A DNA stretch of 42,556 nucleotides from a virus (taxonomy: Duplodnaviria; Caudoviricetes): the IMG/VR virus record IMGVR_UViG_3300020045_003090, positions 1-42,556 of that record; one strand, written 5' to 3'. A program made the translations under genes and the position numbers. Positions 2,315 to 41,919 of this stretch are shown here, piece after piece (within the stretch, counting starts at the first letter, position 1; the number at the start of each line of letters is the position of its first letter). A model generated the notes under the pieces. It did no database searches. It had not been told where the DNA came from and saw nothing but the letters and a program-made list of their open reading frames with translations.

Positions 2315-2620
2315 ATGCATGACCTTTCACCACAATCTATTTTTACTTTGATAACCGTTGTGTTATCTTTGGGCATCCAATACGGAGTGTATTTGGCTTT
2401 TAAAACTAAAACAGAATTGGAACTTAGAAAATTTGAAGAACGGATGCTACTAATCGAAACGAAAGTTCAGCAATCTGATTTAAAATTGCAGCAAGTACTC
2501 GATGAAGTACGGCACATTAACGGCCACTTTGAGCGGATATTTAAAAAGTTAGATACCTACGATGAAAATATTAAAAACTTTTATCGCGATTATCAGTTAA
2601 CCCCAAAGGGGAACGGTTAA
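2315..2620 (+). CDS. Membrane protein with coiled coil (possible holin or lysis accessory)
   Basis: N-terminal hydrophobic segment (IFTLITVVLSLGIQYGVYL) followed by a coiled-coil-like region. Confidence 0.45.
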   Translation: MHDLSPQSIFTLITVVLSLGIQYGVYLAFKTKTELELRKFEERMLLIETKVQQSDLKLQQVLDEVRHINGHFERIFKKLDTYDENIKNFYRDYQLTPKGNG

Positions 2621-3243
2621 TGCAATCGTTTATGTAATTCTTTCATTGCTTTTATGTCATCATCAGGCCGGTTAACTCCCTTGCACCGGTAGTTATACGT
2701 TACCTTAAACGGTTCTTCGTAATAACAACACCTGCTATCATCATGCACTAATTCGATGCCGTGTTGATGCAATACGCGGCCTATTTCAACATCTTCTACC
2801 AAGTCAGATTGTTCGTCAATATTTTCGACTAATATCTTAGCAACATCTGGAGTTATGATAAAGCATGCACCTGATGCGAAGTTGCCGCCACTATAACCGG
2901 AATAGTATTTTTCGCGCGGTAAGTCCTGCAACCTGATTTTCAATTGCTCAATATCAATGTACGTTGAGGCATTTATGCGAATGATGTAATCGTAAAAATC
3001 AATATGCGCGCCTATAAATTGCAGGCACTCTTTAAACTTTATGTGCATGCGCATGTAAGTATCTTCGCACTTAGTGTAAATAGTATCGCTGTTGTAATCG
3101 GTTGACAAGTGGTTTGAAGTGTAAAAAACAGCACTACACCAGTTAGTTAATTTGCAATCACTTACAAATGTTTCGCGTTGCACCTGCCGCAATTCAGGGT
3201 AGAAATCGTTATTCGATGAGAGTATTAGAATTAGTGCTTTCAT
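2617..3243 (-). CDS. Glycosyltransferase, GT31/galactosyltransferase-like
   Basis: FASGACFII and VEDVEIG resemble the GT31 motifs (xSGxGY; EDVxxG). Confidence 0.6.
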   Translation of the reverse strand: MKALILILSSNNDFYPELRQVQRETFVSDCKLTNWCSAVFYTSNHLSTDYNSDTIYTKCEDTYMRMHIKFKECLQFIGAHIDFYDYIIRINASTYIDIEQLKIRLQDLPREKYYSGYSGGNFASGACFIITPDVAKILVENIDEQSDLVEDVEIGRVLHQHGIELVHDDSRCCYYEEPFKVTYNYRCKGVNRPDDDIKAMKELHKRLH

Positions 3244-3452
3244 GATTCTAATTCTAACATTTCTATTTTCTCATTATAACGGTCATTCATTTTTTTATAC
3301 TCAATTTCTAATTTAGCTGAGTTAAGAATAGTTTGGGCAACCGATGCTATTGATTTAGCTTGGCTATCAGAAATAGAACCGTTCTTTAATTTTTCAAGGG
3401 TTTCAAATAAATGAACCCTAACTGTTTTAATGTTGTACTCTGTTTTTTCCAT
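3240..3452 (-). CDS. Phage hypothetical protein
   Basis: Intact ORF overlapping neighbours; helical AKSIASVAQTILNSAKLE segment. Confidence 0.6.
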   Translation of the reverse strand: MEKTEYNIKTVRVHLFETLEKLKNGSISDSQAKSIASVAQTILNSAKLEIEYKKMNDRYNEKIEMLELES

Positions 3453-3789
3453 GTCTATGTATTTTTATTAATAACCGTTTAGATTCAATAAGTTCACTAA
3501 AATCTTCACCCCACTTTTTCCCGTTAGTTATTCTGTTTTTAATGTAAGAATCTTTTAATTCTGAAATAGCTTTTTTATTGGATTTGTTATTTATCGTATT
3601 GTTATGTTTTTTAAAATCATCGTTCAATCTTTTATCAGCAATATAATTATTTATGTAATCTGAAAAGTATTTTAAATGATTTATCCTATTAATCCTGCAA
3701 TATTTATTCCAACAGTCTTTACATCTCGTCCGAAGCCTACCATCGCCCCTATTTGCATTTCGTTGATTATCACATTCAATGCATTTCAT
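3427..3789 (-). CDS. Zn-finger hypothetical protein
   Basis: CxxC...CxxC at the N-terminus; basic protein. Confidence 0.55.
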   Translation of the reverse strand: MKCIECDNQRNANRGDGRLRTRCKDCWNKYCRINRINHLKYFSDYINNYIADKRLNDDFKKHNNTINNKSNKKAISELKDSYIKNRITNGKKWGEDFSELIESKRLLIKIHRHGKNRVQH

Positions 3790-3794
3790 ATTTA

Positions 3795-4145
3795 TTATAA
3801 TCGTTTGTCGTGTGGCAATAATCGCCTGTTGTTTTTAATCAGTCCTCTTACTGTTGTCGGGCTAATATTATATTTCTTTGCTAAATCACATTGCCTTATT
3901 CCGTTACACCAATCAGTTAAAAGGTTTTTATTGCGTTCAGATAATTTTTTCATTTGCTCCATAGCTTCTACGCTTGCTAATTTGTGGTCGCCAAAGCCTG
4001 TTGTAGGGAGATGAAAATTAATTATCGGCATTGTATTATGCGAACTTGCGCTTGTAAATGTTAGTGGTGGGCAATCACAAGTTAATGAAAACGGTGAATG
4101 TATTTTAAAGCATCGCGGGCATTCCCAACCTATATTATTTGTCAT
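3795..4145 (-). CDS. Zn-ribbon plus C-terminal HTH protein
   Basis: GWECPRC...CDC at the N-terminus; QCDLAKKYNISPTTVRGLI is HTH-like. Confidence 0.55.
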   Translation of the reverse strand: MTNNIGWECPRCFKIHSPFSLTCDCPPLTFTSASSHNTMPIINFHLPTTGFGDHKLASVEAMEQMKKLSERNKNLLTDWCNGIRQCDLAKKYNISPTTVRGLIKNNRRLLPHDKRL

Positions 4146-4912
4146 AATGCTAAATATTTATTTCTGTAATCATGCATCCAAAGTATTTCGTTATCCGGGT
4201 ACTTTGCCGAAAACAAATCTACTACTTTCTCAAAGTTAATTGCAGCGGTTAAAGGTCGCGGCAGGTGTGCATCAATTATGTTGTCGAATCTTCGCGGCCA
4301 ACCATCGCGGTCAGCGCGGTTTGTTGCGGTGCCGCCTTCGTTGCGCCTTGAAACCTTATTGAAGTAAATACCGGAACTGTTAATTGCCTCAGTCAGTAAT
4401 TCCTGATCCAAACTCCAATAATCACCGCGCACGTTATTTGAAGGCAAATCATTGATAAATGATAATGATGATTGAACGGAATCTTTATCAGTAATATTCA
4501 TTATCCTCTTCCATTTATAAGCACTCATTTGAGTGTAACACATTGGAATTTGACCATCCGCTAAATCGTATCCTATAATAATTGGCGATTGATTAAATAA
4601 CTTAGAATCGAATACGCACATATCAACGTCAGCAGTAATTAATACAGTATCAATATTTTCGCCAATAGCCCCGAATAACCGGCTTACCTGAGAATAGGTA
4701 GGCTTTAAATGTTCGGCACATTCGTAGGTAACAAATTCCACATCCATATTGGCGCAAAATTCGCGCACCAGTTTAAACTTTGGCGAAATGTAGTCATCAG
4801 ATGCGCACATGCATTTTACATTGTAGCCGATTTTATTCCAACTGAAAACCGCGAATGGTAAGTTGAATAAATAGTTATCATCGGTAGTAGTTGATATGAT
4901 TGCTTTTTTCAT
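4142..4912 (-). CDS. Glycosyltransferase-like protein (GT-A fold)
   Basis: DxD motif (LITADVDM) after a hydrophobic strand, a later WSLDQ motif, and location in a GT cluster. Confidence 0.5.
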   Translation of the reverse strand: MKKAIISTTTDDNYLFNLPFAVFSWNKIGYNVKCMCASDDYISPKFKLVREFCANMDVEFVTYECAEHLKPTYSQVSRLFGAIGENIDTVLITADVDMCVFDSKLFNQSPIIIGYDLADGQIPMCYTQMSAYKWKRIMNITDKDSVQSSLSFINDLPSNNVRGDYWSLDQELLTEAINSSGIYFNKVSRRNEGGTATNRADRDGWPRRFDNIIDAHLPRPLTAAINFEKVVDLFSAKYPDNEILWMHDYRNKYLAL

Positions 4913-4914
4913 TT

Positions 4915-5157
4915 TTAAAATGGTAATTGTTCTATTATTATTTCTGATTTATAAGCTAATTTGCGTAATGATATAATTCCTTTTTTCGATTTGCCAACCA
5001 TTACTGAAACAGTGCCGTTGTTATAGACTTTCCGGGCAGGTTTGTTATTGAAAAAGAAATTACCATTCATATCGCAATATAAATTTTCTATTCCTCTGAA
5101 TCTAAATATTTGTTTGGTAATCATTGATTTAATTAGAACATAATTGCGCCAATCCAT
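4915..5157 (-). CDS. Small basic protein adjoining the left end of the cassette array (NUMOD4-like resemblance)
   Basis: ATG lies 3 bp from the first G|TT crossover; alternative start MITKQ at 5124. FRGIENLY...GNFF...VYNNGTVSV loosely resembles NUMOD4. Confidence 0.5.
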   Translation of the reverse strand: MDWRNYVLIKSMITKQIFRFRGIENLYCDMNGNFFFNNKPARKVYNNGTVSVMVGKSKKGIISLRKLAYKSEIIIEQLPF

Positions 5158-5160
5158 AAG

Positions 5161-5406
5161 TTATGAGCAATAAATAAAGAACTCCACGTCCCAATCTTTT
5201 TGCTCTTCATTTTCCTTTGTTTGAACTATTTTCAATAACGGATTTTCTGATTTCTCAAAACCCCATTCAGTCATAATTTCAGGCTTACCACTCGAAAAAT
5301 GATAACCGTTCCCAGTGCTATCTGTAAAAGATGAATGGGGTTTTAATTGCTTTCTGTGTTTCGCAAAAATAACAGCGTACACTTCATTTGATGTTTCTAT
5401 CCACAT
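5161..5406 (-). CDS. Cassette 1 hypothetical protein
   Basis: 81-aa ORF; its stop codon is the TTA of the G|TTA crossover. Confidence 0.7.
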   Translation of the reverse strand: MWIETSNEVYAVIFAKHRKQLKPHSSFTDSTGNGYHFSSGKPEIMTEWGFEKSENPLLKIVQTKENEEQKDWDVEFFIYCS

Positions 5407-5424
5407 TTTAGTAAAATTTACTAC

Positions 5425-5520
5425 TCATAACAGCGTATATACAAGATACGCCTACAAGCATTTGTTTATAATTTGAAATTTTCGTTAAGGCGTACCTCGT
5501 ATATACGCAAAACGTTACCA
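5425..5520 (+). repeat. attC-like hairpin 1 (96 bp)
   Basis: TAAC-A-GCGTATATACAAGATACGCCT ... AGGCGTACCTCGTATATACGC-AAAAC-GTTACCA. Confidence 0.85.
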
Positions 5521-5526
5521 GCAATT

Positions 5527-5817
5527 TTAGCCAGTAGTCGCTTTGACAATATCTCGCTCATCATCAATCTCAATTCCATAGTGCCAAGTTTCAGTTGTTC
5601 CGAAAGCCAAACAGTATGTTACGCTTCGGTTTGGTCTTAAACTTATTCCTGTTACCATTCGCCCGTGTTGTTCATTGTCCATTTTTAGATATACTGTTTG
5701 ACCTATCTCAAACTCAATCTTATGTCCTGTCGAAAGAAAAACTGCTGGTAACACGGGTTTTGCGTCAGCAGGGGTTTCGTTTTTCAAATCAACTTTTGTG
5801 CTTTTATTTTGCTTCAT
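5527..5817 (-). CDS. Cassette 2 hypothetical protein (SH3/KOW-like small beta protein)
   Basis: FEIGQTVYLK...GRMVTGI motif. The ATG lies inside the loop of hairpin 2. Confidence 0.65.
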   Translation of the reverse strand: MKQNKSTKVDLKNETPADAKPVLPAVFLSTGHKIEFEIGQTVYLKMDNEQHGRMVTGISLRPNRSVTYCLAFGTTETWHYGIEIDDERDIVKATTG

Positions 5818-5878
5818 CTTTCAAATTTACTTTAGTGGTTAAATGCCCTGCCGAACGCAAAGCCCGAAAACGTTAGTG
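5746..5878 (+). repeat. attC-like hairpin 2 (133 bp)
   Basis: TAAC-A-CGGGTTTTGCGTCAGCAGGG ... CCCTGCCGAACGCAAAGCCCG-AAAAC-GTTAGTG. Confidence 0.85.
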
Positions 5879-5884
5879 GCAAGG

Positions 5885-6055
5885 CTAAGAAAGCTCCCAC
5901 TTATCACAAACCAAGTCGTTTAAAGTTATTATTTCAGTGTGTCTTTCAGATTTTGGATTTGTGCAAGTATGCTTTTTCTTTTTACCATCGTAAAAACTTT
6001 TGCAAAATTTACAATCTTTGCATTTAGCGGGTCTTGTGTATGTTGTTACTCCCAT
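5885..6055 (-). CDS. Cassette 3 small Cys-rich (Zn-binding) protein
   Basis: Probable start MGVTTY (ATG 6055); CKDCKFC...HTC...VCDKW. Confidence 0.65.
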   Translation of the reverse strand: MGVTTYTRPAKCKDCKFCKSFYDGKKKKHTCTNPKSERHTEIITLNDLVCDKWELS

Positions 6056-6082
6056 TTTATTTAAGTTTGTGAAAAGCCCAGC

Positions 6083-6213
6083 CACTAACAGCGTGTATAA
6101 AAAATGGCGGGTTCTCGGTTAATTTAAAGTTTTGTAATTCTAATTAAGTTCTGCGTTTGCTGAAAGTTTTGGTTTAAAAATCCGCCACTTCTTATACACG
6201 CAAACCGTTAGGT
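6083..6213 (+). repeat. attC-like hairpin 3 (131 bp)
   Basis: TAAC-A-GCGTGTATAAAAAATGGCGG ... CCGCCACTTCTTATACACGC-AAACC-GTTAGGT. Confidence 0.85.
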
Positions 6214-6250
6214 GCAATAAAAAATAAATTTACCACCGCACCTATACTAA

Positions 6251-6520
6251 TCAATATCTGTATCCTATTTCAAAATATAATTTCCAAAATCCGAACATCA
6301 CCGATTTTTGGCAGTTGTTTCCAGTTAGCCAAATCGGGAATAGTTGCCACATATCACTTCTTCTAATTCCAAGCGATATGAATACGTGCCTCCAACTCTT
6401 TTCTTTGTTTGAAGTTTGCCAAACTGTAAAGTAGTTATGACACCAAAAATCGCCTAATCTGGCTTTGTTTTTCCAAGGATTGATTTCATTCGTTGGAGAT
6501 GCTTTTAATGTAAGTCCCAT
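6251..6520 (-). CDS. Cassette 4 hypothetical protein (Trp-rich)
   Basis: 89-aa ORF filling the cassette. Confidence 0.6.
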   Translation of the reverse strand: MGLTLKASPTNEINPWKNKARLGDFWCHNYFTVWQTSNKEKSWRHVFISLGIRRSDMWQLFPIWLTGNNCQKSVMFGFWKLYFEIGYRY

Positions 6521-6568
6521 TTTGTAAATTGTTTTTTAAAACCCACGCTAAATTTATTTTTTACAGAC

Positions 6569-6667
6569 ACCTAACAGCAGGTAGGCAAAATGCCGCTATG
6601 AGCCTGAGTGCTTTGATATTTACATTTGTGGTAAGCGGCACTATCGCCTACCTGCTACACGTTAGGC
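6569..6667 (+). repeat. attC-like hairpin 4 (99 bp)
   Basis: TAAC-AGCAGGTAGGCAAAATGCCGCT ... AGCGGCACTATCGCCTACCTGCT-ACAC-GTTAGGC. Confidence 0.85.
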
Positions 6668-6793
6668 GTAATTTTAGCGAACACCCGAAGGTGGCAGTCT
6701 TTCCTTGCTGTCATAAGTTATCTGATACTTAAAACCGTTCCCTTTTATTTCAGAGACCAATCACCGCTTATGTTTAAGTGCTTTGCGGTAACA

Positions 6794-7129
6794 CTATTTT
6801 TTGTAAACATACTTTTTCTTAAAATCTTCCGTTGTAGTAATAATTATTTTTTCACCTTTATTTAAGGCTTCCCAAGCATCTTTACTCATAATTAAATCGG
6901 CAGTATGGTCGTTGCCAATTCCAATCACCACATTAACAGTTTCTACAAAGAACTCTGTTTTAAACCCTGCTTTGTTTACAGTAATGTTAGCCTTCGGGCT
7001 TATCTTAATTTCTTTCCCAAGTCTTGTGAAGTGGTCAATTTCATACTGATAAGTTCTTGTAGCTTTTTTGCCTTTAGGTGTTACCATTTCTACACCTATC
7101 GTTTCGTTTGTTTTTCTAATTTTAGACAT
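6794..7129 (-). CDS. Cassette 5 hypothetical protein (111 aa, start MSKIRK)
   Basis: ATG at 7129 follows an A-rich leader and a TAnnTTTG element. The longer track ORF simply reads through hairpin 5. Confidence 0.65.
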   Translation of the reverse strand: MSKIRKTNETIGVEMVTPKGKKATRTYQYEIDHFTRLGKEIKISPKANITVNKAGFKTEFFVETVNVVIGIGNDHTADLIMSKDAWEALNKGEKIIITTTEDFKKKYVYKK

Positions 7130-7148
7130 ATTTTTATAATTTAAGACA

Positions 7149-7156
7149 CAAATATA
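7149..7156 (-). promoter_or_regulatory. Cassette-internal Bacteroidota -7 promoter element
   Basis: TATATTTG on the minus strand, about 20 bp upstream of ATG 7129. Confidence 0.55.
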
Positions 7157-7186
7157 CAAAAATAAACTTAAAACCAAAAAAACTAC

Positions 7187-7287
7187 GCCTAACAGTGGCT
7201 TTGCGTCATTTTTTGCCTTTAACATTTGTGCTAACTTTGAACATTCGAGTAGGCAAAAAACGAACGCAAAGCCCCAAACCGTTACCA
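7187..7287 (+). repeat. attC-like hairpin 5 (101 bp)
   Basis: TAAC-A-GTGGCTTTGCGTCATTTTTTGCCT ... AGGCAAAAAACGAACGCAAAGCCCC-AAACC-GTTACCA. Confidence 0.85.
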
Positions 7288-7294
7288 GCAATAG

Positions 7295-7636
7295 CTAAAA
7301 CTCGTTCCATAAGAACGGATGTCCTTTTTTAGTTGCCAGCCGATAATCTTCCAACTTGAAATCTTCGCCATGTGCATCTTTAAGTGTTTCCAAATCACCA
7401 CAATCTTCGTCATCATCATTGTTCACATAAACGTCTGCCTGTATTGTTTCAAGTCCAGCCACTTTTCTGAAGGTGCTTTCATCATCAATGTTAATGTGAA
7501 CTTGCTTTGTTCTCTCCTCGGCTGGCAACTTGCTGATTGCTTCTAATAAATCATTCCATGTAAACCCGCTACTGCTGGTAACATCGGCTTTGTGCAATGC
7601 CTTACTTTCGTCTTGGTTTGAAGTTTTGTTTTCCAT
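7295..7636 (-). CDS. Cassette 6 acidic hypothetical protein
   Basis: 113 aa, D/E-rich. The ATG lies inside the loop of hairpin 6. Confidence 0.65.
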   Translation of the reverse strand: MENKTSNQDESKALHKADVTSSSGFTWNDLLEAISKLPAEERTKQVHINIDDESTFRKVAGLETIQADVYVNNDDDEDCGDLETLKDAHGEDFKLEDYRLATKKGHPFLWNEF

Positions 7637-7707
7637 TTTAAAATTTGTTTTTTAATGATGTATCAGTTTTAAAATCGGCACTGACACAAAGCCGTTTACC
7701 GTTACCT
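7576..7707 (+). repeat. attC-like hairpin 6 (132 bp)
   Basis: TAAC-AT-CGGCTTTGTGCAATGCC ... GGCACTGACACAAAGCCG-TTTACC-GTTACCT. Confidence 0.8.
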
Positions 7708-7713
7708 GCAAGG

Positions 7714-8034
7714 CTACGATACAGCTTCCAAATAGAATATTGGTTTACCAATTGACTGTGCATACTCAATTTCGCTTCGTGTTGACTGACCTATGTAACC
7801 ACCTACATTTAAAACGAATACTTCATCAGCAATATCAATTTTACGTTTGTGCAAATCATCGGCTTTTTGCTTGTAGTCACTTTCTGCACCATATTCACGT
7901 TCAATATCTACGAACATGCAACACGGCAACAAAGCGATTTCACCTTTCAAAACAGCTTCGTATTCTGCTTTTTTAAATGCTTCTAATGCAACACGGAGCG
8001 AACCGCAATAGCATACTTTTTTTGTACTTTCCAT
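7714..8034 (-). CDS. Cassette 7 nucleoside 2-deoxyribosyltransferase-like / DUF4406-like protein
   Basis: CGSLR...HKRKIDIADEVFVLNVGGYIGQSTRSEIEYA is characteristic of this flavodoxin-like fold family. Confidence 0.65.
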   Translation of the reverse strand: MESTKKVCYCGSLRVALEAFKKAEYEAVLKGEIALLPCCMFVDIEREYGAESDYKQKADDLHKRKIDIADEVFVLNVGGYIGQSTRSEIEYAQSIGKPIFYLEAVS

Positions 8035-8075
8035 TTTTGTTGTTAATTAAATTCCTGCTAATAATACCGCCCAGC

Positions 8076-8173
8076 AGGTAACAAGCGGTTTGGCAATATG
8101 CAGCCAATGACATTTGTGCTTTAATTGAACTGACTGCAAGGCTGCACATCGCCAAGCCGCCAGACCGTTACAG
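8076..8173 (+). repeat. attC-like hairpin 7 (98 bp)
   Basis: TAAC-AA-GCGGTTTGGCAATATGCAGCC ... GGCTGCACATCGCCAAGCCGC-CAGACC-GTTACAG. Confidence 0.85.
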
Positions 8174-8191
8174 GCAAGTGTTAGCACCCTA

Positions 8192-8803
8192 CTAATCAAT
8201 GCCGACAAAGAACGCTAAATCATCGCCACTTGACTTTTCATCTTCATTTTGACTTTGTTCTTCGTTTTTTGATTCAGGCTTTGGCATATCTTGTATAGAT
8301 TCAACAAGTTTCTTCATTTCGCCTAAACACATTGAAAATCCTTTTTTGTAGTAGCGAAAAGCTCGGCTCATAGTTGAAGCAGGATAAGTAATCTTGTTTA
8401 TCATTAATTGCCTTTTTGCCAAGTCCATAAATGTAGTTTCGCCATAATAAACATTTTCAGTATCTACTGCAAACATTGATACAGTAAAATCAAAGGCGTC
8501 AATAGTTTCTTTTGGAGTTGCAAAAAACTTTTTAACCAAGTCAAATGTTTTGCCATTATAAACTATTTTCATTCCATTATCACTTTCCCATTTAACCGTA
8601 CATTCTTTTGCTTTGAAATATACTTTTGCTTTTTCGTATTCTATTTCATTAGGAAAAAACAAATCATAGTCGGTTTTTACTTTTACGCCAGCGAAATAAT
8701 CACGTAAAGCACCGCCAGCAAGCCAACAGTTAATATTAGCTTCTTTTAATTCGTTAAGAATAAGTTTGCCGTATCTTTCAACAGCGTTTGTAATTTGTAT
8801 CAT
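8192..8803 (-). CDS. Cassette 8 nucleotidyltransferase (CCA-adding / poly(A) polymerase head domain-like)
   Basis: WLAGGALRD...DYDLFF and FDFTVSMFA match class II NTase head motifs (GGxVRD, DxD, RDFT). Confidence 0.75.
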   Translation of the reverse strand: MIQITNAVERYGKLILNELKEANINCWLAGGALRDYFAGVKVKTDYDLFFPNEIEYEKAKVYFKAKECTVKWESDNGMKIVYNGKTFDLVKKFFATPKETIDAFDFTVSMFAVDTENVYYGETTFMDLAKRQLMINKITYPASTMSRAFRYYKKGFSMCLGEMKKLVESIQDMPKPESKNEEQSQNEDEKSSGDDLAFFVGID

Positions 8804-8836
8804 TTTGACATTCGTTTTAAATTAACCCAAACCTGC

Positions 8837-8968
8837 CTGTAACATCGGTTTGCCAAAAGCTGGGCAGAAGTGGTAAATTCAGCTTTTGTACCTTTAATCG
8901 GCTTTAGTGCAAGGGTTTAGCATTTGTACTTCTAATCCCAGCCTTCGGCAATCTGCAAAATGTTATAA
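8837..8968 (+). repeat. attC-like hairpin 8 (132 bp, outer stem partly degenerate)
   Basis: TAAC-ATCGGTTTGCCAAAAGCTGGG ... CCCAGCCTTCGGCAATCTGC-AAAAT-GTTATAA. Confidence 0.75.
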
Positions 8969-9634
8969 CCCCTTAATAAAAAAAATCTGTTCATCGCTTA
9001 TTTTATTCGGATAGTACGAAATAATATCCTGATAATGCGGCATGATTATCTGTTGCTGATGCAGCGACAAACTAAACGCTGACTGGTCTTGCCGGTGGAA
9101 TAAGAATCTTTTATCTTCACTTTGATTATCATGCAACCGCGAACCTTTAAACATGCCTGCATGCATGTGTTCAGACCAACGGCCAAACAGATTGCGCGCA
9201 TCAGGATTATTAAAGTTAAGACCTACGCAACCGGTAGCATATTCAATAATATTTTCAGCTTCATCGCGGGTGATGCCGCAATGCTGCAATATACGGTCAT
9301 TGCAAGATTGAGCGCAATTGTAGCCGGTGCGGAAAGCGAAGATGCCGTTATCATTAATGTAATCGAATAACCGCATTACATCGTTAATTGCATACACAGA
9401 TGAATCAAGCCATACTATATGCGTATAGCTTTGCATCAATGCTTCTTCGAATGCGTAAATCTTAAATGCATACGGATTTTCTGAATGCATCGGCCAATTA
9501 TACGGATGTGTGGTGTGCGATATAATTTCACCTGCATAGCCGTGATATATCAATGACCGCTCTAACCGGAATTGCCCGCGATTGTACCAACCGCCAACAC
9601 CGTATGAGATTATGCATGTTTTATTTGAATCCAT
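8963..9634 (-). CDS. Glycosyltransferase-like protein
   Basis: PYAFK, IVWLDSS and HRQDQSAFS motifs of GT-A-like (DUF1647-type) proteins. Its stop codon forms the last GTTA of the array. Confidence 0.65.
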   Translation of the reverse strand: MDSNKTCIISYGVGGWYNRGQFRLERSLIYHGYAGEIISHTTHPYNWPMHSENPYAFKIYAFEEALMQSYTHIVWLDSSVYAINDVMRLFDYINDNGIFAFRTGYNCAQSCNDRILQHCGITRDEAENIIEYATGCVGLNFNNPDARNLFGRWSEHMHAGMFKGSRLHDNQSEDKRFLFHRQDQSAFSLSLHQQQIIMPHYQDIISYYPNKISDEQIFFIKGL

Positions 9635-9644
9635 TGTTATTTAA

Positions 9645-9809
9645 TTAGCTACCTATAAAGTATTCAGCAATCTTGCAACGTATTATCCATATTACTGTGC
9701 AGAGCCAACCAGTCATTGATTGATAGTTATGGTCTATGCCTGAAACAATTACGCATCCTATGGCTAACACGAATGCGATTACATCAGCAACATTCCTTAA
9801 TTTTTTCAT
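9645..9809 (-). CDS. Small two-TM membrane protein
   Basis: Probable start MKKLRN; two hydrophobic segments. Confidence 0.45.
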   Translation of the reverse strand: MKKLRNVADVIAFVLAIGCVIVSGIDHNYQSMTGWLCTVIWIIRCKIAEYFIGS

Positions 9810-9827
9810 GTTAATTTTATTTAAATG

Positions 9828-9835
9828 CAAATGTA
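9828..9835 (-). promoter_or_regulatory. Bacteroidota -7 promoter element facing the cassette array
   Basis: TACATTTG on the minus strand in the AT-rich gap upstream of the 9645-9809 gene. Confidence 0.6.
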
Positions 9836-9874
9836 TAATAAAATATTATACGATTTACAAAATGATGAAAATAT

Positions 9875-10462
9875 TTATTTTATGCCGTATCTTTCGTTAT
9901 GAGGCGTTGAAGTATGCCGGTAGATATACATAAATTCGTCAATGTGTACTTCAGTTTTTAGTATCGGTTTTATCCGCTTTGCAAAGTCATGATCTTCGCC
10001 AAATCGCATATCATTAACACCAGTCCGCAAACATAAATCAGTTTTGATAGGTGTTTTAAAAAACGGTGTGCGGGCGTGTTTTATGCGGCCTGTTTTGAAT
10101 GATGCCCAATCGGAATAGTTTAAAGAGAAATTAGATAACTCAATTCGGCCATCAATAAAGCAATGTTCTTTATAAGTGATGCAGTCCGGGTAAGCGTGTA
10201 TTGCAAATAATACCTTTTTAACGTATTGATTATGCAACCAGTCATCATCATCTACCTGAACGCTAAACTTTGCATCAGCCATTTCATAAAGTCTTTGACG
10301 CTTGGCTCCTATGCTCAATTGCTTGTTATCCTTGCATGCGATAACTTCAACCACATCTTTAAACCGGTCGCGGTTAATCTGATGAGTAATGAAAGAATAC
10401 AACTCATTAAATAACTTTTCGCGGCCTAATATTGTAGGGATTTGGATAGATAACAACTTCAT
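9875..10462 (-). CDS. Glycosyltransferase family 2
   Basis: LLSIQIPT, SIGAKRQRL, VQVDDDDW and FGEDHDF motifs. Confidence 0.8.
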   Translation of the reverse strand: MKLLSIQIPTILGREKLFNELYSFITHQINRDRFKDVVEVIACKDNKQLSIGAKRQRLYEMADAKFSVQVDDDDWLHNQYVKKVLFAIHAYPDCITYKEHCFIDGRIELSNFSLNYSDWASFKTGRIKHARTPFFKTPIKTDLCLRTGVNDMRFGEDHDFAKRIKPILKTEVHIDEFMYIYRHTSTPHNERYGIK

Positions 10463-11172
10463 AAATACAAATTTTTAGTATCTTTTTTTAGCCCGAAATT
10501 AATTAATTTTCTACGTTCAAATGTGTTTTTATCGTATGCGAAAAATGAATCAGTTTTGCGGTACTGCGCATCCATTACCCCGCGTTTATTGTGCATCGGG
10601 TGCAGGTGGTTAAAAAGCACGTTACCATCACCCATGTATTTATACTTACCGCGCAATTTAGCCACTTCCATCGCTTCGTTATCGCACCAAAGCGAAATAT
10701 AATCAGGATGGTATATGTAGTTATCGCGGTTGTAGTATTCGCGGCCAATGATGCTCAATGTCATTAATTCTGACTTGTAGCTGTTGCCATCATCGTAATG
10801 TAACACCGTATCTAACCGGCCATGCAAATCATCGCAATGAATCATATCTGAAATAATAATCTCATCGAATCCTTGCTTTACAAAAATCATATCATCGCTC
10901 ATATTAACAAGTATATCCCACTTGTATGATATAAATTCCATGTCGCGGTTTATGGCATGCACTTTAGAATCGCTAAAATCGAAGCGGTATGTTAAATGAT
11001 CAATGTCATCCATTGCATTCATAACGCTATCATTATTCATGCTTACATCGTCAAAGTCTAACGTGGCATGTATGTGATACTCATCGCGTGTGGAAAGCGA
11101 TTGAATGCTGTTTATTGCCCGAAAGAAATTGACCGGGCGCGACCTGCTTGTTAATTTATAAAGGATATTCAT
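10459..11172 (-). CDS. Glycosyltransferase family 2-like
   Basis: SRSRP, AINR, ILVNMSDDM, WCDNE and HLHP motifs. Confidence 0.7.
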   Translation of the reverse strand: MNILYKLTSRSRPVNFFRAINSIQSLSTRDEYHIHATLDFDDVSMNNDSVMNAMDDIDHLTYRFDFSDSKVHAINRDMEFISYKWDILVNMSDDMIFVKQGFDEIIISDMIHCDDLHGRLDTVLHYDDGNSYKSELMTLSIIGREYYNRDNYIYHPDYISLWCDNEAMEVAKLRGKYKYMGDGNVLFNHLHPMHNKRGVMDAQYRKTDSFFAYDKNTFERRKLINFGLKKDTKNLYL

Positions 11173-17319: not shown

Positions 17320-17500
17320 ATTTTTATACCAATCAATTTTTAAAAGGCGATTGGTAATCCCCGTTTGAATCCCCTTTTAAATTGCCTGTCAAAATAGTTT
17401 TAAAACATATAATTGATTAATTTATGCAACTTTATTGTTAAAGTTTTAAGCTACATTATCAATCACTTACGTTAATTATAGAAAATTATTTTGCTTCAAA

Positions 17501-17580
17501 TGTCGGGTGTATTATAAAATGTTATACTATTGCAAAGTCAAATCAAAACAAACACTAACAATTTAAAGTCAAACAAAATG
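17501..17580 (+). promoter_or_regulatory. Promoter plus translation leader module, copy 1
   Basis: TGTCGGGTGTATTATAAAATGTTATAC is identical at 25989-26015; CTAACAATTTAAAGTCAAA(A)CAAAATG is also shared. Confidence 0.7.
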
Positions 17581-25968: not shown

Positions 25969-25988
25969 AAAAAATATTTTCTTCATTT

Positions 25989-26065
25989 TGTCGGGTGTAT
26001 TATAAAATGTTATACATTTGCTGCATCAAATTAAAAATCTAACAATTTAAAGTCAAAACAAAATG
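25989..26065 (+). promoter_or_regulatory. Promoter plus translation leader module, copy 2
   Basis: 27-bp identity with 17501-17527; TACATTTG at 26013-26020. Confidence 0.7.
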
Positions 26066-26742: not shown

Positions 26743-28094
26743 TGAAGTACAACATCAACATAGACCCGCGTGTAATCTTACCAAAGTATCAGCATTTACT
26801 AAATGATGATAATGTTGATATTGACTTTCTTTATGGTTCGCGCGATAGTTCAAAATCGCACACAACAGCACAATTATTAATTCTCAAATGCCTGACTGAA
26901 AAGTATTTCCGGTGTGTGTTGGTGCGTAAAGTGTACGCCACAATAAAGGATTCTCAATTTCAGCTTATAAAGGATATTGTAAACGATTGGAACCTGAGTA
27001 ATATGTTTACTTTCAATGTTTCGCCACTTGAAATTAAGTGCATCAATGGTAACCGTTTTATTTGCAGGGGATTCGATGATGCTCAAAAGATTAAGTCAAT
27101 TCAGAATCCAAACTTTACATGGGTTGAAGAAGCATCTGAATTAACTGCCGATGATTGGATAGTGCTTGAAACATCATTACGGACAAATCAAGGCCGGGTA
27201 AAAACATTCGCCACATTTAATCCTGAAGCGCAAGGTGATTACCGCGACTTTTGGCTTTACAAAGATTATTTCAGCCATACCGAATTGTTATCATTCAAAA
27301 ACACTAAGACCGTTCAAATTGGCGATATTGAAATAAATATTGTTTACCGGGCAACGCATAGCACATACAAAGATAACCCTTATTGCAGCCCGCAAAGGAT
27401 AGCTATCTATGAAGGTTTGCGCGACACTTCACCATACTACTACAAAATTTACTGTTTAGGACTTTGGCAAAACCGCGAAAATAAATCACCATTTATTTTA
27501 ACTTTCAAACGTGAAAAGCATTTAGGCGAAACAAAGTATAATCCTGAAATGCCGTTATATTTATCATTCGACTTCAACCGGAACCCGATGTGCTGCAATG
27601 TTATTCAATGGGATAACGCTAATAAAGTTGATGTGATTGAGGTTATAAAGCTACCTAATTCATCTACTTGGCAGGTGTGTGAATTGATAAAAATGAAGTA
27701 CGAAAGCGAATCGCATAAACCACTTTATATTGTATGCGGTGATTATTCGGGTGTTGGGCAATCGGCTATGGTGCGCGAAGATGATCTGAACAACCATTAC
27801 AAAATTATCATGCAGGTGTTGGAGTTATCGCAAAATCAGCTTCAATATATCCTTAACCCGCCTATTGAAAAGAATCAGGTTCTTTGCAACTGGGCATTTC
27901 AAAACCTCGAAATTACTATTAACACCGACACATGCCAACCGCTTATATTTGACATTGAAAATGCTGAAATGCTTGCCGATGGTAGCCTTAAAAAACGCGA
28001 CCGAAATGATCCATCACAACAATTAGATGCATTGGATGGTTTCAGGTATTTTATAAACAGATATTTCAGGGGTGCAAAAACAGGTATTGAATAA
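26742..28094 (+). CDS. terL: Terminase large subunit (PBSX/SPP1-like)
   Basis: Walker A-like GSRDSSKS, Walker B WVEEASE, TFNP, nuclease motifs SFDFN and DALDGFRY. Confidence 0.9.
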   Translation: MKYNINIDPRVILPKYQHLLNDDNVDIDFLYGSRDSSKSHTTAQLLILKCLTEKYFRCVLVRKVYATIKDSQFQLIKDIVNDWNLSNMFTFNVSPLEIKCINGNRFICRGFDDAQKIKSIQNPNFTWVEEASELTADDWIVLETSLRTNQGRVKTFATFNPEAQGDYRDFWLYKDYFSHTELLSFKNTKTVQIGDIEINIVYRATHSTYKDNPYCSPQRIAIYEGLRDTSPYYYKIYCLGLWQNRENKSPFILTFKREKHLGETKYNPEMPLYLSFDFNRNPMCCNVIQWDNANKVDVIEVIKLPNSSTWQVCELIKMKYESESHKPLYIVCGDYSGVGQSAMVREDDLNNHYKIIMQVLELSQNQLQYILNPPIEKNQVLCNWAFQNLEITINTDTCQPLIFDIENAEMLADGSLKKRDRNDPSQQLDALDGFRYFINRYFRGAKTGIE

Positions 28095-28105
28095 TAAAAT
28101 ATTTT

Positions 28106-28113
28106 TATATTTG
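28106..28113 (+). promoter_or_regulatory. Bacteroidota -7 promoter element
   Basis: TATATTTG before ATG 28130. Confidence 0.55.
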
Positions 28114-28129
28114 CAAAAATAAAATACCA

Positions 28130-38993: not shown

Positions 38994-39280
38994 TGCAGCA
39001 TACAAAGCCAGCTGAGTTTTGGGGGCAATTGACCGATGAAAACAAACGTGCTTTCACCACTATTGCCCACATTATACGCAGTCAGGTTGATGTTGCATTG
39101 CGTGTATATTGTTACGGTTCGCGTGTTGGCGGATATTGGCGCGAAGATTCAGATTATGATATAGTAGTTGGAAGTTGTAAATCGTATCATAAAGAAAAAT
39201 TATATAAATTGAAATTCCCTTACAAGGTGGATTTAAAAATATCAGTTAGTAAAAACATAAATTATATCGAAATACCATGA
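38972..39280 (+). CDS. Minimal nucleotidyltransferase (MNT, Pol-beta family)
   Basis: VYCYGSRVGG...DSDYDIVV...KVDL. Confidence 0.75.
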   Translation: MADREHIMQHTKPAEFWGQLTDENKRAFTTIAHIIRSQVDVALRVYCYGSRVGGYWREDSDYDIVVGSCKSYHKEKLYKLKFPYKVDLKISVSKNINYIEIP

Positions 39281-40353
39281 CATCGCAACAAATAGTAGAT
39301 GCATTAGAAGCAGGTACGCTGATTATACCGCCTCAGCAGCGCGAAATATTACAGGCATTAGCGGCAGTAGTAAACGGTTCGGCTGATGCCGGGTACGTTA
39401 CAATAGTTGATGAACTTGAAGCCGGCACTTTAGTAATCGAACCAACCTACCGCGAAATACTTGAAGCACTTGCAGCGGTTCAAAATGGTTCAGTTGATGC
39501 GGGTTATGTAGCTATTGTAGATGAATTGCAGGCAGGAACTATCAACGTGCCGCGCGATTACCGCGTAATTTATCAGGCAATAGCTGATATTATCAATAGT
39601 GCGGTTCCCGCAACACCCGACATCGAATTTATTGCCGATGGCGCAACCTTTACAGGGTTCGGCCTAAACGCACCTGTCGGAGTTGATAACATTTCTGTGG
39701 ATTGGGGCGATGGTAACACGGAACTGTTTAGCGGGGATGGAAACACAAATGAATTAGCACACACCTATGCTGATTCTGACCCTTATACGGTTTCAGTAAC
39801 TGTTACAGGGGCAACTGAATTTATAGTTAATTATGATGATGGCGTAGGGGCTGATAGTTTGTTGACAGTATTAACAATGCCTGCAAGTATTTTAGATTTT
39901 AATGTTGGGTTTAATTCTAACTTAACAAGTATTGATACAACAGGGTTAATAGGTTGTACTTCTTTTCAATGTAGTGCTTGCACATCATTAACAATACTTG
40001 ACACGACAGCATTAACAAGCTGTAGCTATTTTGTTTTTAATGGCTGCACATCATTGAGTACTATTGACACAATAGGGCTAACAAGTTGTACTAATTTTGC
40101 TGGTTATAACTGCACATCATTATCTACCATTGACACGACAGGGTTAATAAGTTGTACTACGTTTGATTGTAGAAATTGCACATTAGACGTTACAAACGTA
40201 AACAACGCCTTAATAAACATAGAAGCAAACGGACTATCAAACGGAAGTTTCGATTCAAGCGGCCAAACACCCGCAGCCGTACCAACAGGAGCAGGTGCAA
40301 CGGCATCAGAAGATTTAGTTAGTAATGGCTGGACTGTGTCGGTAGATGCTTAA
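39277..40353 (+). CDS. Repeat protein: three 37-aa repeats, a PKD-like domain and leucine-rich repeats
   Basis: IVDxLxAGT three times at a 111-bp period; VDWGDG; about four 22-aa CTSLxxIDTxGL repeats. Confidence 0.65.
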   Translation: MTSQQIVDALEAGTLIIPPQQREILQALAAVVNGSADAGYVTIVDELEAGTLVIEPTYREILEALAAVQNGSVDAGYVAIVDELQAGTINVPRDYRVIYQAIADIINSAVPATPDIEFIADGATFTGFGLNAPVGVDNISVDWGDGNTELFSGDGNTNELAHTYADSDPYTVSVTVTGATEFIVNYDDGVGADSLLTVLTMPASILDFNVGFNSNLTSIDTTGLIGCTSFQCSACTSLTILDTTALTSCSYFVFNGCTSLSTIDTIGLTSCTNFAGYNCTSLSTIDTTGLISCTTFDCRNCTLDVTNVNNALINIEANGLSNGSFDSSGQTPAAVPTGAGATASEDLVSNGWTVSVDA

Positions 40354-40366
40354 AAACTAAAAAAAC

Positions 40367-41083
40367 ATGAAAACACTACTATTCATACTACTATCACTAT
40401 CCGTAAGTGGTCAACAAATCATCAGTTGCGATGATTTTGAAAATGGCTTGAATGGATGGCAATTCACCTATCCTACTAACCATGTAAATTCATGGAAGGT
40501 ATCAACGGCAGCGGGCAATGGTAATAGTATGTTTGTTACATGCGATAACACAAACTTCAATTACTGCAACGCAACATCAGGAACTGAAAGGATAGTTGTG
40601 TGGAAGTCTTTTAACACGGCTCAATGCAACGGTGATTTATTGATTACTTATAATTGGAAAGGTTTTGGAAACGGTACATTCGATTATGGTTCGTGGGGTT
40701 TAAGCAATAACCCTACATCGGTTAACAGTTGGAATATTTACACAACTGCACACAGCGGCACTAATACATGGGTAAGTGCATCACTGTTGCTAACATCAAA
40801 TTGGACTATGTTTTATAATGCAAGTCTTAAATTCGGATTTACGTTTGATTACAATAGTAACACAATAGGCAGTTCATCATTCGCATTCGATAATTTCTGC
40901 ATCAAATGTTTTCAAGCACCGCTATCACTCGATACCACAACAGCACAAAGTCAAACTTACATCATTGAAGATAATCCGATAATTAAATTAATTGACATCG
41001 CAGGCCGCGAAATAACCGAACCTAAAGGACTTTATTTTATTGTGCGTAAATTTGGCAAGCCGCAAAAAGCATTTAAATTATGA
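40367..41083 (+). CDS. Secreted protein with a T9SS C-terminal-domain-like tail
   Basis: Signal peptide ending SVSG-Q, DDFENG...W module and C-terminal IKLIDIAGREI...GLYFIV...K. Confidence 0.55.
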   Translation: MKTLLFILLSLSVSGQQIISCDDFENGLNGWQFTYPTNHVNSWKVSTAAGNGNSMFVTCDNTNFNYCNATSGTERIVVWKSFNTAQCNGDLLITYNWKGFGNGTFDYGSWGLSNNPTSVNSWNIYTTAHSGTNTWVSASLLLTSNWTMFYNASLKFGFTFDYNSNTIGSSSFAFDNFCIKCFQAPLSLDTTTAQSQTYIIEDNPIIKLIDIAGREITEPKGLYFIVRKFGKPQKAFKL

Positions 41084-41919
41084 AAGACAAATCAACAGGA
41101 ATAGTATTCATTGCAACAGGCGCGCCAGAATATGGTTGCATGGCTGCTGCATTAGCCGCGTCTATTCTTGCAACTGAATATATTAGCATATCATTATACT
41201 ATCATGGTAATGCTATTGCCCGGTTATCCGATGCAGAAAAGAATCTATTTGCATCAGTAGAATTATTGCCCGATAAATACATAATGAATGGGGTTAAAAA
41301 GTTGCCATTTAAGCCAAAGGTATATTTGCATAAAATCACACCTTACAAACAAACATTATATCTCGATGTAGATATGGGGTGGAACCCGGCAAAGAAAGTA
41401 AGCGAATTAATTAAATCATTTGGCGAACGCGAATTTGTTACTATTTGCGAAGGGTACAACAACGCAAATAAGCGTTATCAAACATGGGCTAATATTGATG
41501 ATATTAAACGTGCGTATAATGTTACTGATATTCCGCAAACACGAACCGAATTAATTTACTTTGAAAAAAATGAAGTAAGCAATGCAATATTTAGCAAAGC
41601 TGCTGAAGTGTTTTTAAAGCCATTAGTAAACTTTTCAACCTACGGCAGTCATACGCCTGATGAGTTGGCTTTTAATATTTCATGCGCTTTAAATGGCTAT
41701 AAATTAGATAAATTCTCACCTATCTATTGGCACTATTTGCACAAAGGCGTTAAATGGAATAGTAACTATGCCTATTCAATGGGTGGGGCAGTTACTTCAA
41801 CAGAACAGAAACGAATTTACAACGGCATCATTCAGAATGCTTATTATAAATTAGGACTACAACGGTCGTACAAGTACATCGACAAAAAATATTTTGCCAA
41901 AAATTACAAAGTACTGTAA
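41080..41919 (+). CDS. Glycosyltransferase (GT8-like)
   Basis: TPYKQTLYLDVD (DxD) and PDELAFN motifs. Confidence 0.65.
   Translation: MKDKSTGIVFIATGAPEYGCMAAALAASILATEYISISLYYHGNAIARLSDAEKNLFASVELLPDKYIMNGVKKLPFKPKVYLHKITPYKQTLYLDVDMGWNPAKKVSELIKSFGEREFVTICEGYNNANKRYQTWANIDDIKRAYNVTDIPQTRTELIYFEKNEVSNAIFSKAAEVFLKPLVNFSTYGSHTPDELAFNISCALNGYKLDKFSPIYWHYLHKGVKWNSNYAYSMGGAVTSTEQKRIYNGIIQNAYYKLGLQRSYKYIDKKYFAKNYKVL

What the first reader, a model, noticed from the sequence alone, without database searches (positions are those of the whole stretch)
5160..8968. The recombination sites are a non-canonical attC class with extended GTTA-N3-GCAA ends
Seen: cassette starts read GTTATGAGCAA, GTTACCAGCAA, GTTAGTGGCAA, GTTAGGTGCAA, GTTAGGCGTAA, GTTACCAGCAA, GTTACCTGCAA and GTTACAGGCAA. 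Pairing with the other cassette end extends about 15 bp, usually with an A/C mismatch at position 11 (for example GTTACCAGCAATAGC versus the reverse complement GTTACCAGCAGTAGC). The spacer is asymmetric: 0-2 nt after AAC and 4-6 nt before GTT. Where an unpaired base exists (sites 2, 4, 5, 6) it is on the right arm. Sizes fall in two classes (96-101 and 131-133 bp), and most loops share CATTTGT. Established: classical attC sites have 7-bp R boxes and extrahelical bases on the R''-L'' arm. Inference: a distinct recombinase family recognises these sites.
Basis: partly seen in the sequence, partly recalled or inferred. Interest (0 to 1): 0.8.

Follow-up and report, generated by a model that had tools for sequence, protein, structure and literature searches.

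The report
Integron-like cassettes lacking IntI hallmarks
This phage carries a row of eight swappable one-gene cassettes joined by hairpin-forming DNA sites that lack the flipped-out bases integron integrases need, and related phages place such rows next to a shorter recombinase that likely shuffles them by a route not found in the papers searched.

Summary
Eight cassettes (5161-8962) end in 96-133-bp hairpin sites whose left arm matches the cassette's own start. None arose in 100 simulations. Cassettes 1, 2 and 8 recur elsewhere with other neighbours.

The sites differ from attC. They have no left-arm extrahelical base (137 of 145). They have two mirror-image boxes, each with a conserved A at position 11 facing C, which is a T·G wobble on the better-folding bottom strand.

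Correction: the asymmetric spacer and pairing to about 10 bp are not diagnostic. IntI-linked attC sites from the same phylum have both.

This phage encodes no recombinase. In other phages, 32 of 39 non-redundant ~275-aa tyrosine recombinases lacking the IntI insertion have such an array upstream, against 3 of 54 downstream. An attI-like site lies at 5143-5162. One family member (phage P12002L) gave no verified IntI1 recombinant in a published test. Catalysis is untested.

The scan noted this system before on at least 17 other genomes. Ten paper searches found no description of it.

The parts
5143..5162 (+). attI-like primary site (no hairpin): left box ATTGC-N3-AAT-C, 5 nt, then GTT of cassette 1
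   Evidence: Distal-box score 7.3, reached by 0.47% of window positions. Same register as recombinase-adjacent host junctions L151 and L156, and similar first junctions in L010, L014, L016, L031 and L160. It does not fit the commoner phage ACATAT-type junction (score -1.5). Function inferred.
5161..5514 (+). Cassette 1; ORF 5161-5406 on - strand (81 aa, no family); site 1 at 5425-5520 (96 bp; outer arm from 5416)
   Evidence: Found as 5141-5517 inside a 1052-nt wastewater contig with other flanks on both sides.
5515..5872 (+). Cassette 2; ORF 5527-5817 on - strand starts inside the hairpin loop; site 2 at 5746-5878 (133 bp)
   Evidence: 5514-5874 recovered with 0 differences in two contigs of run X13.
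5873..6207 (+). Cassette 3; ORF within 5885-6085 on - strand (phrog_38227, unknown function); site 3 at 6083-6213 (131 bp)
6208..6661 (+). Cassette 4; ORF 6251-6520 on - strand; site 4 at 6569-6667 (99 bp)
6662..7281 (+). Cassette 5; ORF frame 6794-7291 on - strand (likely start 7129); site 5 at 7187-7287 (101 bp)
7282..7701 (+). Cassette 6; ORF 7295-7636 on - strand starts inside the hairpin loop; site 6 at 7576-7707 (132 bp)
7702..8167 (+). Cassette 7; ORF 7714-8034 on - strand; site 7 at 8076-8173 (98 bp)
8168..8962 (+). Cassette 8; ORF 8192-8803 on - strand (nucleotidyltransferase-like, phrog_4400/phrog_1614); site 8 at 8837-8968 (132 bp)
   Evidence: 94.9% identical copy in a 77.7-kb phage (L160) whose homology begins exactly at G8167. 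8166-8951 also lies inside a 1417-nt contig with other flanks.
9828..9861 (-). Bacteroidota sigma-A-type promoter-like repeat (TTTG...TAnnTTTG) pointing into the array from its distal end; related copy at 25987-26020
   Evidence: -7 consensus from PMC9723704 passages. 8 matches in the window against 3.65 expected, so weak on its own. Activity untested.

Best explanation
The region is an array of eight mobile one-gene cassettes in a phage with no recombinase of its own, and a short (~275 aa) IntI-related tyrosine recombinase from the host or a co-infecting phage likely moves them by recombining the folded bottom strand of each site. Shown: each folded site presents two mirror-image boxes (G-N-T-W-N3-R-M-A-A-T). 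They sit 4 nt apart on one arm and 7-8 nt apart on the other. Each box has an A at position 11 opposite C, which is a T·G wobble on the bottom strand and an A·C mismatch on the top strand. The hairpin travels with the gene on its left, and neighbours change at the right-hand GTT. Inferred: two recombinase monomers read the two wobble-marked boxes. This would replace the extrahelical-base/I2 contact that IntI uses to choose the strand. The cut would fall in the AAC on the bottom strand. The 3-4-nt loop and non-matching spacers would block a second exchange, and replication would resolve the junction. New cassettes would enter at the attI-like site (5143-5162). The genes read towards that site, likely from a phage promoter at the far end, the reverse of integron Pc logic.
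For: Own-start specificity and null model. Unselected hairpin pairs: positions 12-15 match the own start at 0.66-0.72 against 0.21-0.41 for the next start, and A11 is present in 98% of 140. Inner box: T 94%, A11 94%, A·C 88% of 145 non-redundant sites. Compensatory pairing in the inner stem. Bottom strand folds better in 8 of 8 and 203 of 208. Mobility of this window's cassettes and of others. Recombinase adjacency in both directions, with catalytic motifs intact in 55 of 56. The segment holding the IntI insertion is 60-71 aa in these enzymes against 107-108 aa in IntI. All 4 tested score below the TIGR02249 cut-off. P12002L attC1, a family member, was the only one of six phage sites without a verified IntI1 recombinant (PMC9892861).
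Against: There is no biochemical test, and no recombinase in this genome. True IntI is as common as the short enzyme in the sampled phylum (50 and 51 of 151 genomes), so IntI in trans is available. In hosts the link is looser: 11 of 20 short-recombinase loci had a family site within about 7 kb, and only 3 showed a multi-site array. IntI can recombine some attC sites without extrahelical bases (PMC5027507 passages). The P12002L negative is one short, slightly aberrant site tested with its genomic, mismatched R box. The second P12002L fragment, which spans that array's first junction, was recombined by IntI1. G·T-favoured bottom strands are also a known property of classical attC.
Confidence: 0.66

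Rival explanations
1. The sites are a lineage variant of ordinary attC and are recombined in trans by true IntI integrases of the host; the short recombinase is a bystander.
For: They share the AAC/GTT core, AAC-A / C-GTT flanks, asymmetric spacer and roughly 90/125-130 size classes with IntI-linked sites of the same phylum. IntI is present in 50 of 151 genomes. Extrahelical bases are dispensable for some attC (PMC5027507).
Against: 30 of 30 IntI-linked sites have a left-arm extra base and 0 of 30 have the inner A·C, against 8 of 145 and 88% for this family. A family site was near 1 of 11 IntI loci, at the 7-kb edge. The family model hit none of 5 IntI arrays. The short enzyme sits at the array head. 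P12002L attC1 was negative with IntI1.
Confidence: 0.12
2. The short recombinase acts on double-stranded DNA. The left arm alone forms an 11-6-11 Xer-like core, mismatched spacers are tolerated as in some conjugative transposons, and the hairpin is kept as an RNA element (terminator or translation control) for the antisense gene.
For: The left arm holds both boxes with a 6-bp gap, like dif (PMC5357621 passages). The enzyme lacks I2, which is held to be needed for single-strand recombination (PMC7790495). 70 of 114 long sites contain the gene's start codon.
Against: The exchange point is at the right-hand GTT, 80-120 nt from the left arm. The outer arm co-varies with the far end of the cassette, which pairs only in the excised circle. 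Host arrays with sense genes keep the same geometry.
Confidence: 0.12
3. Host XerC/XerD are hijacked on the folded strand, as by phage CTX, and the dedicated enzyme is not required.
For: CTX is a precedent for an I2-less recombinase acting on folded ssDNA (PMC5357621). Most array-bearing phages have no recombinase (24 of 28).
Against: The enzyme at the array head falls outside the XerD-like clade and is tied to a conserved attI-like junction about 50 nt from its start codon.
Confidence: 0.06
4. The array is a dead relic that now changes only by homologous recombination or decay.
For: No recombinase in the genome. No close relative with a different cassette order was found.
Against: All 8 sites are intact, and cassette 2 is identical to a copy in another sample. 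This concerns current activity, not origin.
Confidence: 0.04

Closest known systems
Integrons (IntI, attI, attC cassettes) and integrase-less CALINs, including phage CALINs (PMC9892861)
   Same: Tandem one-gene cassettes; AAC...GTT core; left arm complementary to the own cassette start; more stable bottom-strand hairpin; neighbours change at GTT; tyrosine recombinase divergent from a hairpin-less first junction in phages; this phage is a CALIN-like orphan.
   Different: No extrahelical bases on the R''-L'' arm; twin position-11 mismatches; outer pairing resumes to position 15; linked enzyme lacks the ~40-aa IntI insertion; phage genes lie on the bottom strand (182 of 182 viral cassettes plus 8 of 8 here), while IntI-linked genes lie on the top strand (22 of 23).
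Polaribacter phage P12002L 'CALIN' (NC_028924; PMC9892861)
   Same: Same site family in a short form (T7, inner A·C, A11 starts, antisense methyltransferase genes).
   Different: Published as ordinary attC with 'divergent' sites; its family-type site gave no verified IntI1 product; the class and its enzyme were not recognised.
Xer/dif and CTX-type IMEX (folded ssDNA recombined by XerC; PMC5357621)
   Same: Two ~11-bp dyad arms around a 6-bp gap; enzyme of XerA size (best NCBIfam hit NF040815, below cut-off); I2-less recombination on folded ssDNA.
   Different: A dedicated single enzyme; arrays of many exchangeable cassettes; target is not dif; outside the XerD-like clade.
'Integron-like' subgroup of simple tyrosine recombinases (PMC8138268)
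   Same: That subgroup is described as having an insertion 'not fully conserved'; these enzymes may be its insertion-less members (not tested against those profiles).
   Different: In the passages read, no sites, arrays or function are assigned to insertion-less members.

Membership tests
Classical attC | AAC in R'' complementary to GTT in R' of the same cassette | tested here: met
   8 of 8
Classical attC | Bottom strand folds into the more stable hairpin | tested here: met
   8 of 8; 203 of 208
Classical attC | Two or three extrahelical bases on the R''-L'' arm (G16, T23/24; PMC5027507) | tested here: not met
   None at G16 in the 8 sites (one extra at inner position 20 in site 6); 8 of 145 family sites against 30 of 30 IntI-linked controls
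Classical attC | Unpaired central spacer of 5-6 nt on each arm | tested here: not met
   4 nt against 8 nt; but IntI-linked sites of the same phylum are also asymmetric, so this is not diagnostic
Classical attC | Length 57-141 bp | tested here: met
   96-133 bp
Classical attC | Scores with the IntegronFinder/HattCI attC models | not testable with these tools
   Models not available. A sequence-only proxy from 29 IntI-linked sites hit nothing in the window, but also nothing in 4 held-out IntI loci. No Rfam family matched.
Classical attC | Recombined by IntI1 | not testable with these tools
   Published negative for one relative, P12002L attC1 (PMC9892861)
Integron (complete) | intI gene next to the array | tested here: not met
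   No PF00589 match in the genome
Integron (complete) | attI at the array head | tested here: inconclusive
   attI-like junction at 5143-5162 by pattern only
IntI integrase (linked enzyme) | I2-bearing insertion in the catalytic domain; TIGR02249 cut-off 265 | tested here: not met
   Segment 60-71 aa against 107-108 aa; 60-155 bits
IntI integrase (linked enzyme) | Tyrosine-recombinase catalytic residues and fold | tested here: met
   55 of 56 motifs intact; model pLDDT 89.8, best matches 2A3V and 5HXY
XerC/XerD | TIGR02224/TIGR02225 cut-offs; clade membership | tested here: not met
   66-171 bits against about 330; outside the XerD-like clade

The most novel reading that the evidence does not exclude
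These short recombinases preserve the pre-I2 state from which integron integrases arose. Single-strand cassette shuffling would then predate the I2 helix and have used twin T·G wobbles for strand choice. Phage arrays, whose recombining strand is the mRNA-like strand, would be where new cassettes are built from ordinary phage genes.
Probability: 0.2. Interest if true: 0.92.

Novelty: new variant of a known kind. Interest (0 to 1): 0.74.

Why it matters
The current model holds that the I2 helix and single-strand recombination occur only in IntI, and that gaining I2 made integrons possible; direct proof is stated to be lacking (PMC7790495 passages). A widespread I2-less relative that appears to shuffle hairpin-bounded cassettes makes that question testable with natural enzymes and sites. 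It would also mean that Bacteroidota, where IntegronFinder reports very few integrons (PMC9024848 passages), and their phages have a large cassette pool that current tools largely miss. Related phage arrays are rich in DNA methyltransferase-like genes. The twin position-11 mismatch gives a simple rule for telling these sites from attC.

Tried and rejected
Rfam scan of 4000-10000 at E<=10: only chance hits.

A first fold-based detector found only 1 of the 8 sites because it used top-strand genomic ends. A first classical-control detector picked wrong sites and was replaced by 12 hand-kept sites out of 22 candidates. The strict classical detector found almost nothing near IntI genes and was replaced.

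RNAalifold gave no consensus pairs for either alignment, so both models are sequence-only. The classical proxy had no positive control and is inconclusive. The family model includes a close relative of site 4 (L081), so that one hit is not independent.

Search for a close relative with an empty or reordered array via the flanking gene: 3 loci at 42-45% identity, no cassettes.

CATTTGT as a start codon or promoter: not consistent across sites; TAnnTTTG is in only 28 of 208 loops against 15 expected.

Joints in run contigs (table 5) have short sides and unknown middles and were not used. Runs labelled RNA were probably DNA, so no expression claim is made.

Trees do not resolve whether IntI is nested in or sister to the short enzymes. 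Long rows were dropped (L044, L145, L117), along with 6 near-duplicates.

MITE paper PMC11602168: the passages read do not describe these sites. PMC2095811 was not read. bioRxiv supplements were closed, and the second part of the PMC9892861 supplement and its Dryad annotation file were not seen.
Full report
CONTEXT. The window is a circular phage record: a 121-nt terminal repeat, with terminase, portal, tape-measure, ERF and methyltransferase genes. It encodes no tyrosine recombinase (PF00589, E<=10). The host is inferred to be Bacteroidota: 10 of 12 GTDB loci with the site pattern are titled Bacteroidota taxa, and the phage has TAnnTTTG promoter-like repeats.

OBSERVATION. All described features are present. 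The decisive point is that each site's left arm matches the start of its own cassette better than any of the other eight starts. This is the signature of units that were circles when they inserted. No such unit arose in 100 simulations or elsewhere in the genome.

THE CASSETTES MOVE. Cassette 8 is 94.9% identical to a segment of a 77.7-kb phage, with homology starting exactly at G8167; that copy has lost the right arm of its hairpin. Wastewater contigs hold cassette 1 and cassette 8 with other flanks and cassette 2 with no differences (4 runs from 4 studies; contigs only). Among 208 unique cassettes from 57 loci (the window's included), 4 pairs shared a cassette in different company. In all 4 the hairpin and right spacer stay with the gene on the left and the sequence changes after GTT; 3 also share the start. 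The exchange point is therefore in the right-hand GTT core. G|TT exactly, and a cut on the bottom strand, follow by analogy with integrons. None of 29 homologues of the cassette 7 and 8 proteins passed the cassette detector. One (L160) is a cassette by alignment, and 6 others checked by alignment share only the ORF. Cassette genes thus seem drawn from the ordinary phage gene pool.

WHAT DEFINES THE SITE. The 208 set was selected for at least 8 contiguous and 11 of 16 matches and a spacer surplus of 2-5; position 11 was not selected. Position 11 of the start is A in 208 of 208, facing C in 175. An unselected set of 140 hairpin pairs gives A11 in 98%, a match at 11 in 6%, and matches at 12-15 of 0.66-0.72 against 0.21-0.41 for the next cassette. 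New here: the inner stem carries a mirror copy of this box. In 145 non-redundant sites, inner positions 7, 8, 15 and 16 are T 94%, A/T 100%, A 94% and T 61%, and A15 faces C in 88% while its neighbours pair at 87-98%. The folded bottom strand thus shows two boxes in dyad, each with a T·G wobble at position 11, 4 nt apart on one arm and 7-8 on the other. The inner stem co-varies (91 double-change cells against 36 shuffled; slid controls 16-45). The bottom strand folds better by 4.7 kcal/mol on average (203 of 208). Extra single bases lie on the right arm in 52 and on the left in 8 of 145.

Vibrio and Shewanella attC sites have near-symmetric spacers and left-arm extra bases, and their outer match decays after position 7-8. 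However, true IntI genes occur in 50 of 151 genomes of the Pedobacter MAG's phylum. Hairpins near 11 of these genes have a 3-4-nt right-arm surplus in 48 of 52 and similar size classes. In 30 such cassettes from 6 loci, outer pairing reaches position 10 (0.70) but not 13-15 (0.13-0.23), A11 is 13%, a left-arm extra base is in 30 of 30 and the inner A·C in 0 of 30. Spacer asymmetry and modest extension are therefore lineage traits. The missing extrahelical base, twin A11 and pairing to 15 are diagnostic. A sequence model of the family found all 8 window sites and a host array, and nothing in 5 IntI arrays.

THE ENZYME. Array-first: 4 of 28 records have a tyrosine recombinase, all at the array head and divergent from the top strand. 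In three of them the start codon lies about 40-55 nt from the first GTT. Enzyme-first: of 80 loci picked by protein alone, 45 of 53 with at least 1.5 kb upstream have cassettes there, against 4 of 78 downstream. After collapsing near-identical proteins the counts are 32 of 39 and 3 of 54. The proteins are about 260-295 aa, score below the IntI, XerA, XerC and XerD cut-offs, lack the ~40-aa IntI insertion, and fold like VchIntIA and XerA. They fall outside both the IntI and XerD-like clades, with an unresolved base. Homologues, often N-terminally extended, occur in 51 of 151 sampled genomes. There the link is looser (11 of 20 loci with a site, 3 with arrays), arrays lie on either side of the gene, and genes are mostly on the top strand (10 of 13). 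Viral cassette genes are on the bottom strand in 182 of 182.

PRIMARY SITE. Recombinase-adjacent first junctions have no hairpin and mostly share ACATAT 4-5 nt before GTT. The window's first junction does not fit that pattern. It fits a second one seen in two host junctions and several enzyme-less phages, so it is likely an attI-like site served in trans. The right end at 8962 lacks A11 and coincides with the stop codon of ORF 8963-9634, consistent with the right half of the original target.

LITERATURE. PMC9892861 (parts 1-4 of 7 of the text, which cover the main text, and supplement part 1 of 2) reports a CALIN in Polaribacter phage P12002L. Its sites belong to this family. Its attC1 was the only one of six without a verified IntI1 junction, while attC2, which spans the array's first junction and is not a family hairpin, did recombine. 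Passages only were read of PMC5027507 (attC features), PMC4889954 (concludes that recombinases lacking intI_Cterm near attC are not IntI), PMC9024848 (few Bacteroidetes integrons), PMC8138268, PMC7790495, PMC5357621, PMC11602168 and PMC9723704. Ten searches (six aimed at a prior description) showed no description of this site class or enzyme link. The library lacks most subscription papers. Tolerance of mismatched spacers by conjugative-transposon integrases is recalled, not from a call.

VERDICT. The feature is real. It works like an integron but is not one by two defining tests. The enzyme assignment rests on strong co-occurrence, and the chemistry is inferred. The scan has noted the system on at least 17 other genomes; those notes gave the lead to a short enzyme, which was tested here independently.

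Noticed in passing
L160 (- strand), about 3830-2630: Three repeats of a unit made of a gene start (ORFs beginning MNKIKN) plus an attI-like junction, each followed by a cassette; the copy of cassette 8 lacks its right hairpin arm. This suggests several primary sites per phage or duplicated expression modules.
   Followed up: partly
   Followed up: partly
window 5746-5878 and 7576-7707: Long-class sites contain the start codon of the cassette gene, whose N-terminus is read through the left arm. Family-wide this holds for 70 of 114 long sites against 4 of 65 short ones.
   Followed up: partly
window 9827-9882, 17482-17548, 25970-26036, 28088-28118: Repeated AT-rich promoter-like element, in part with a TAnnTTTG box, heading gene blocks on both strands.
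   Followed up: partly
L045 (G006): Array of more than 20 cassettes, many annotated by eye as DNA methyltransferase-like, with near-duplicate cassettes, beside the recombinase in a 170-kb phage.
   Followed up: no
L150 (G036:C1 about 2,224,000): Host short recombinase broken by a stop codon, with its array downstream in tandem; a second intact copy (L151) has a divergent array.
   Followed up: partly
window 39922-40183: Four 66-nt tandem repeats encoding 22-aa leucine-rich-like repeats in ORF 39277-40353.
   Followed up: no
window 2617-4912, 8963-11172 and 41080-41919: Several glycosyltransferase-like genes flank the array (PHROG and Pfam hits for three), possibly for capsid or DNA modification.
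   Followed up: no
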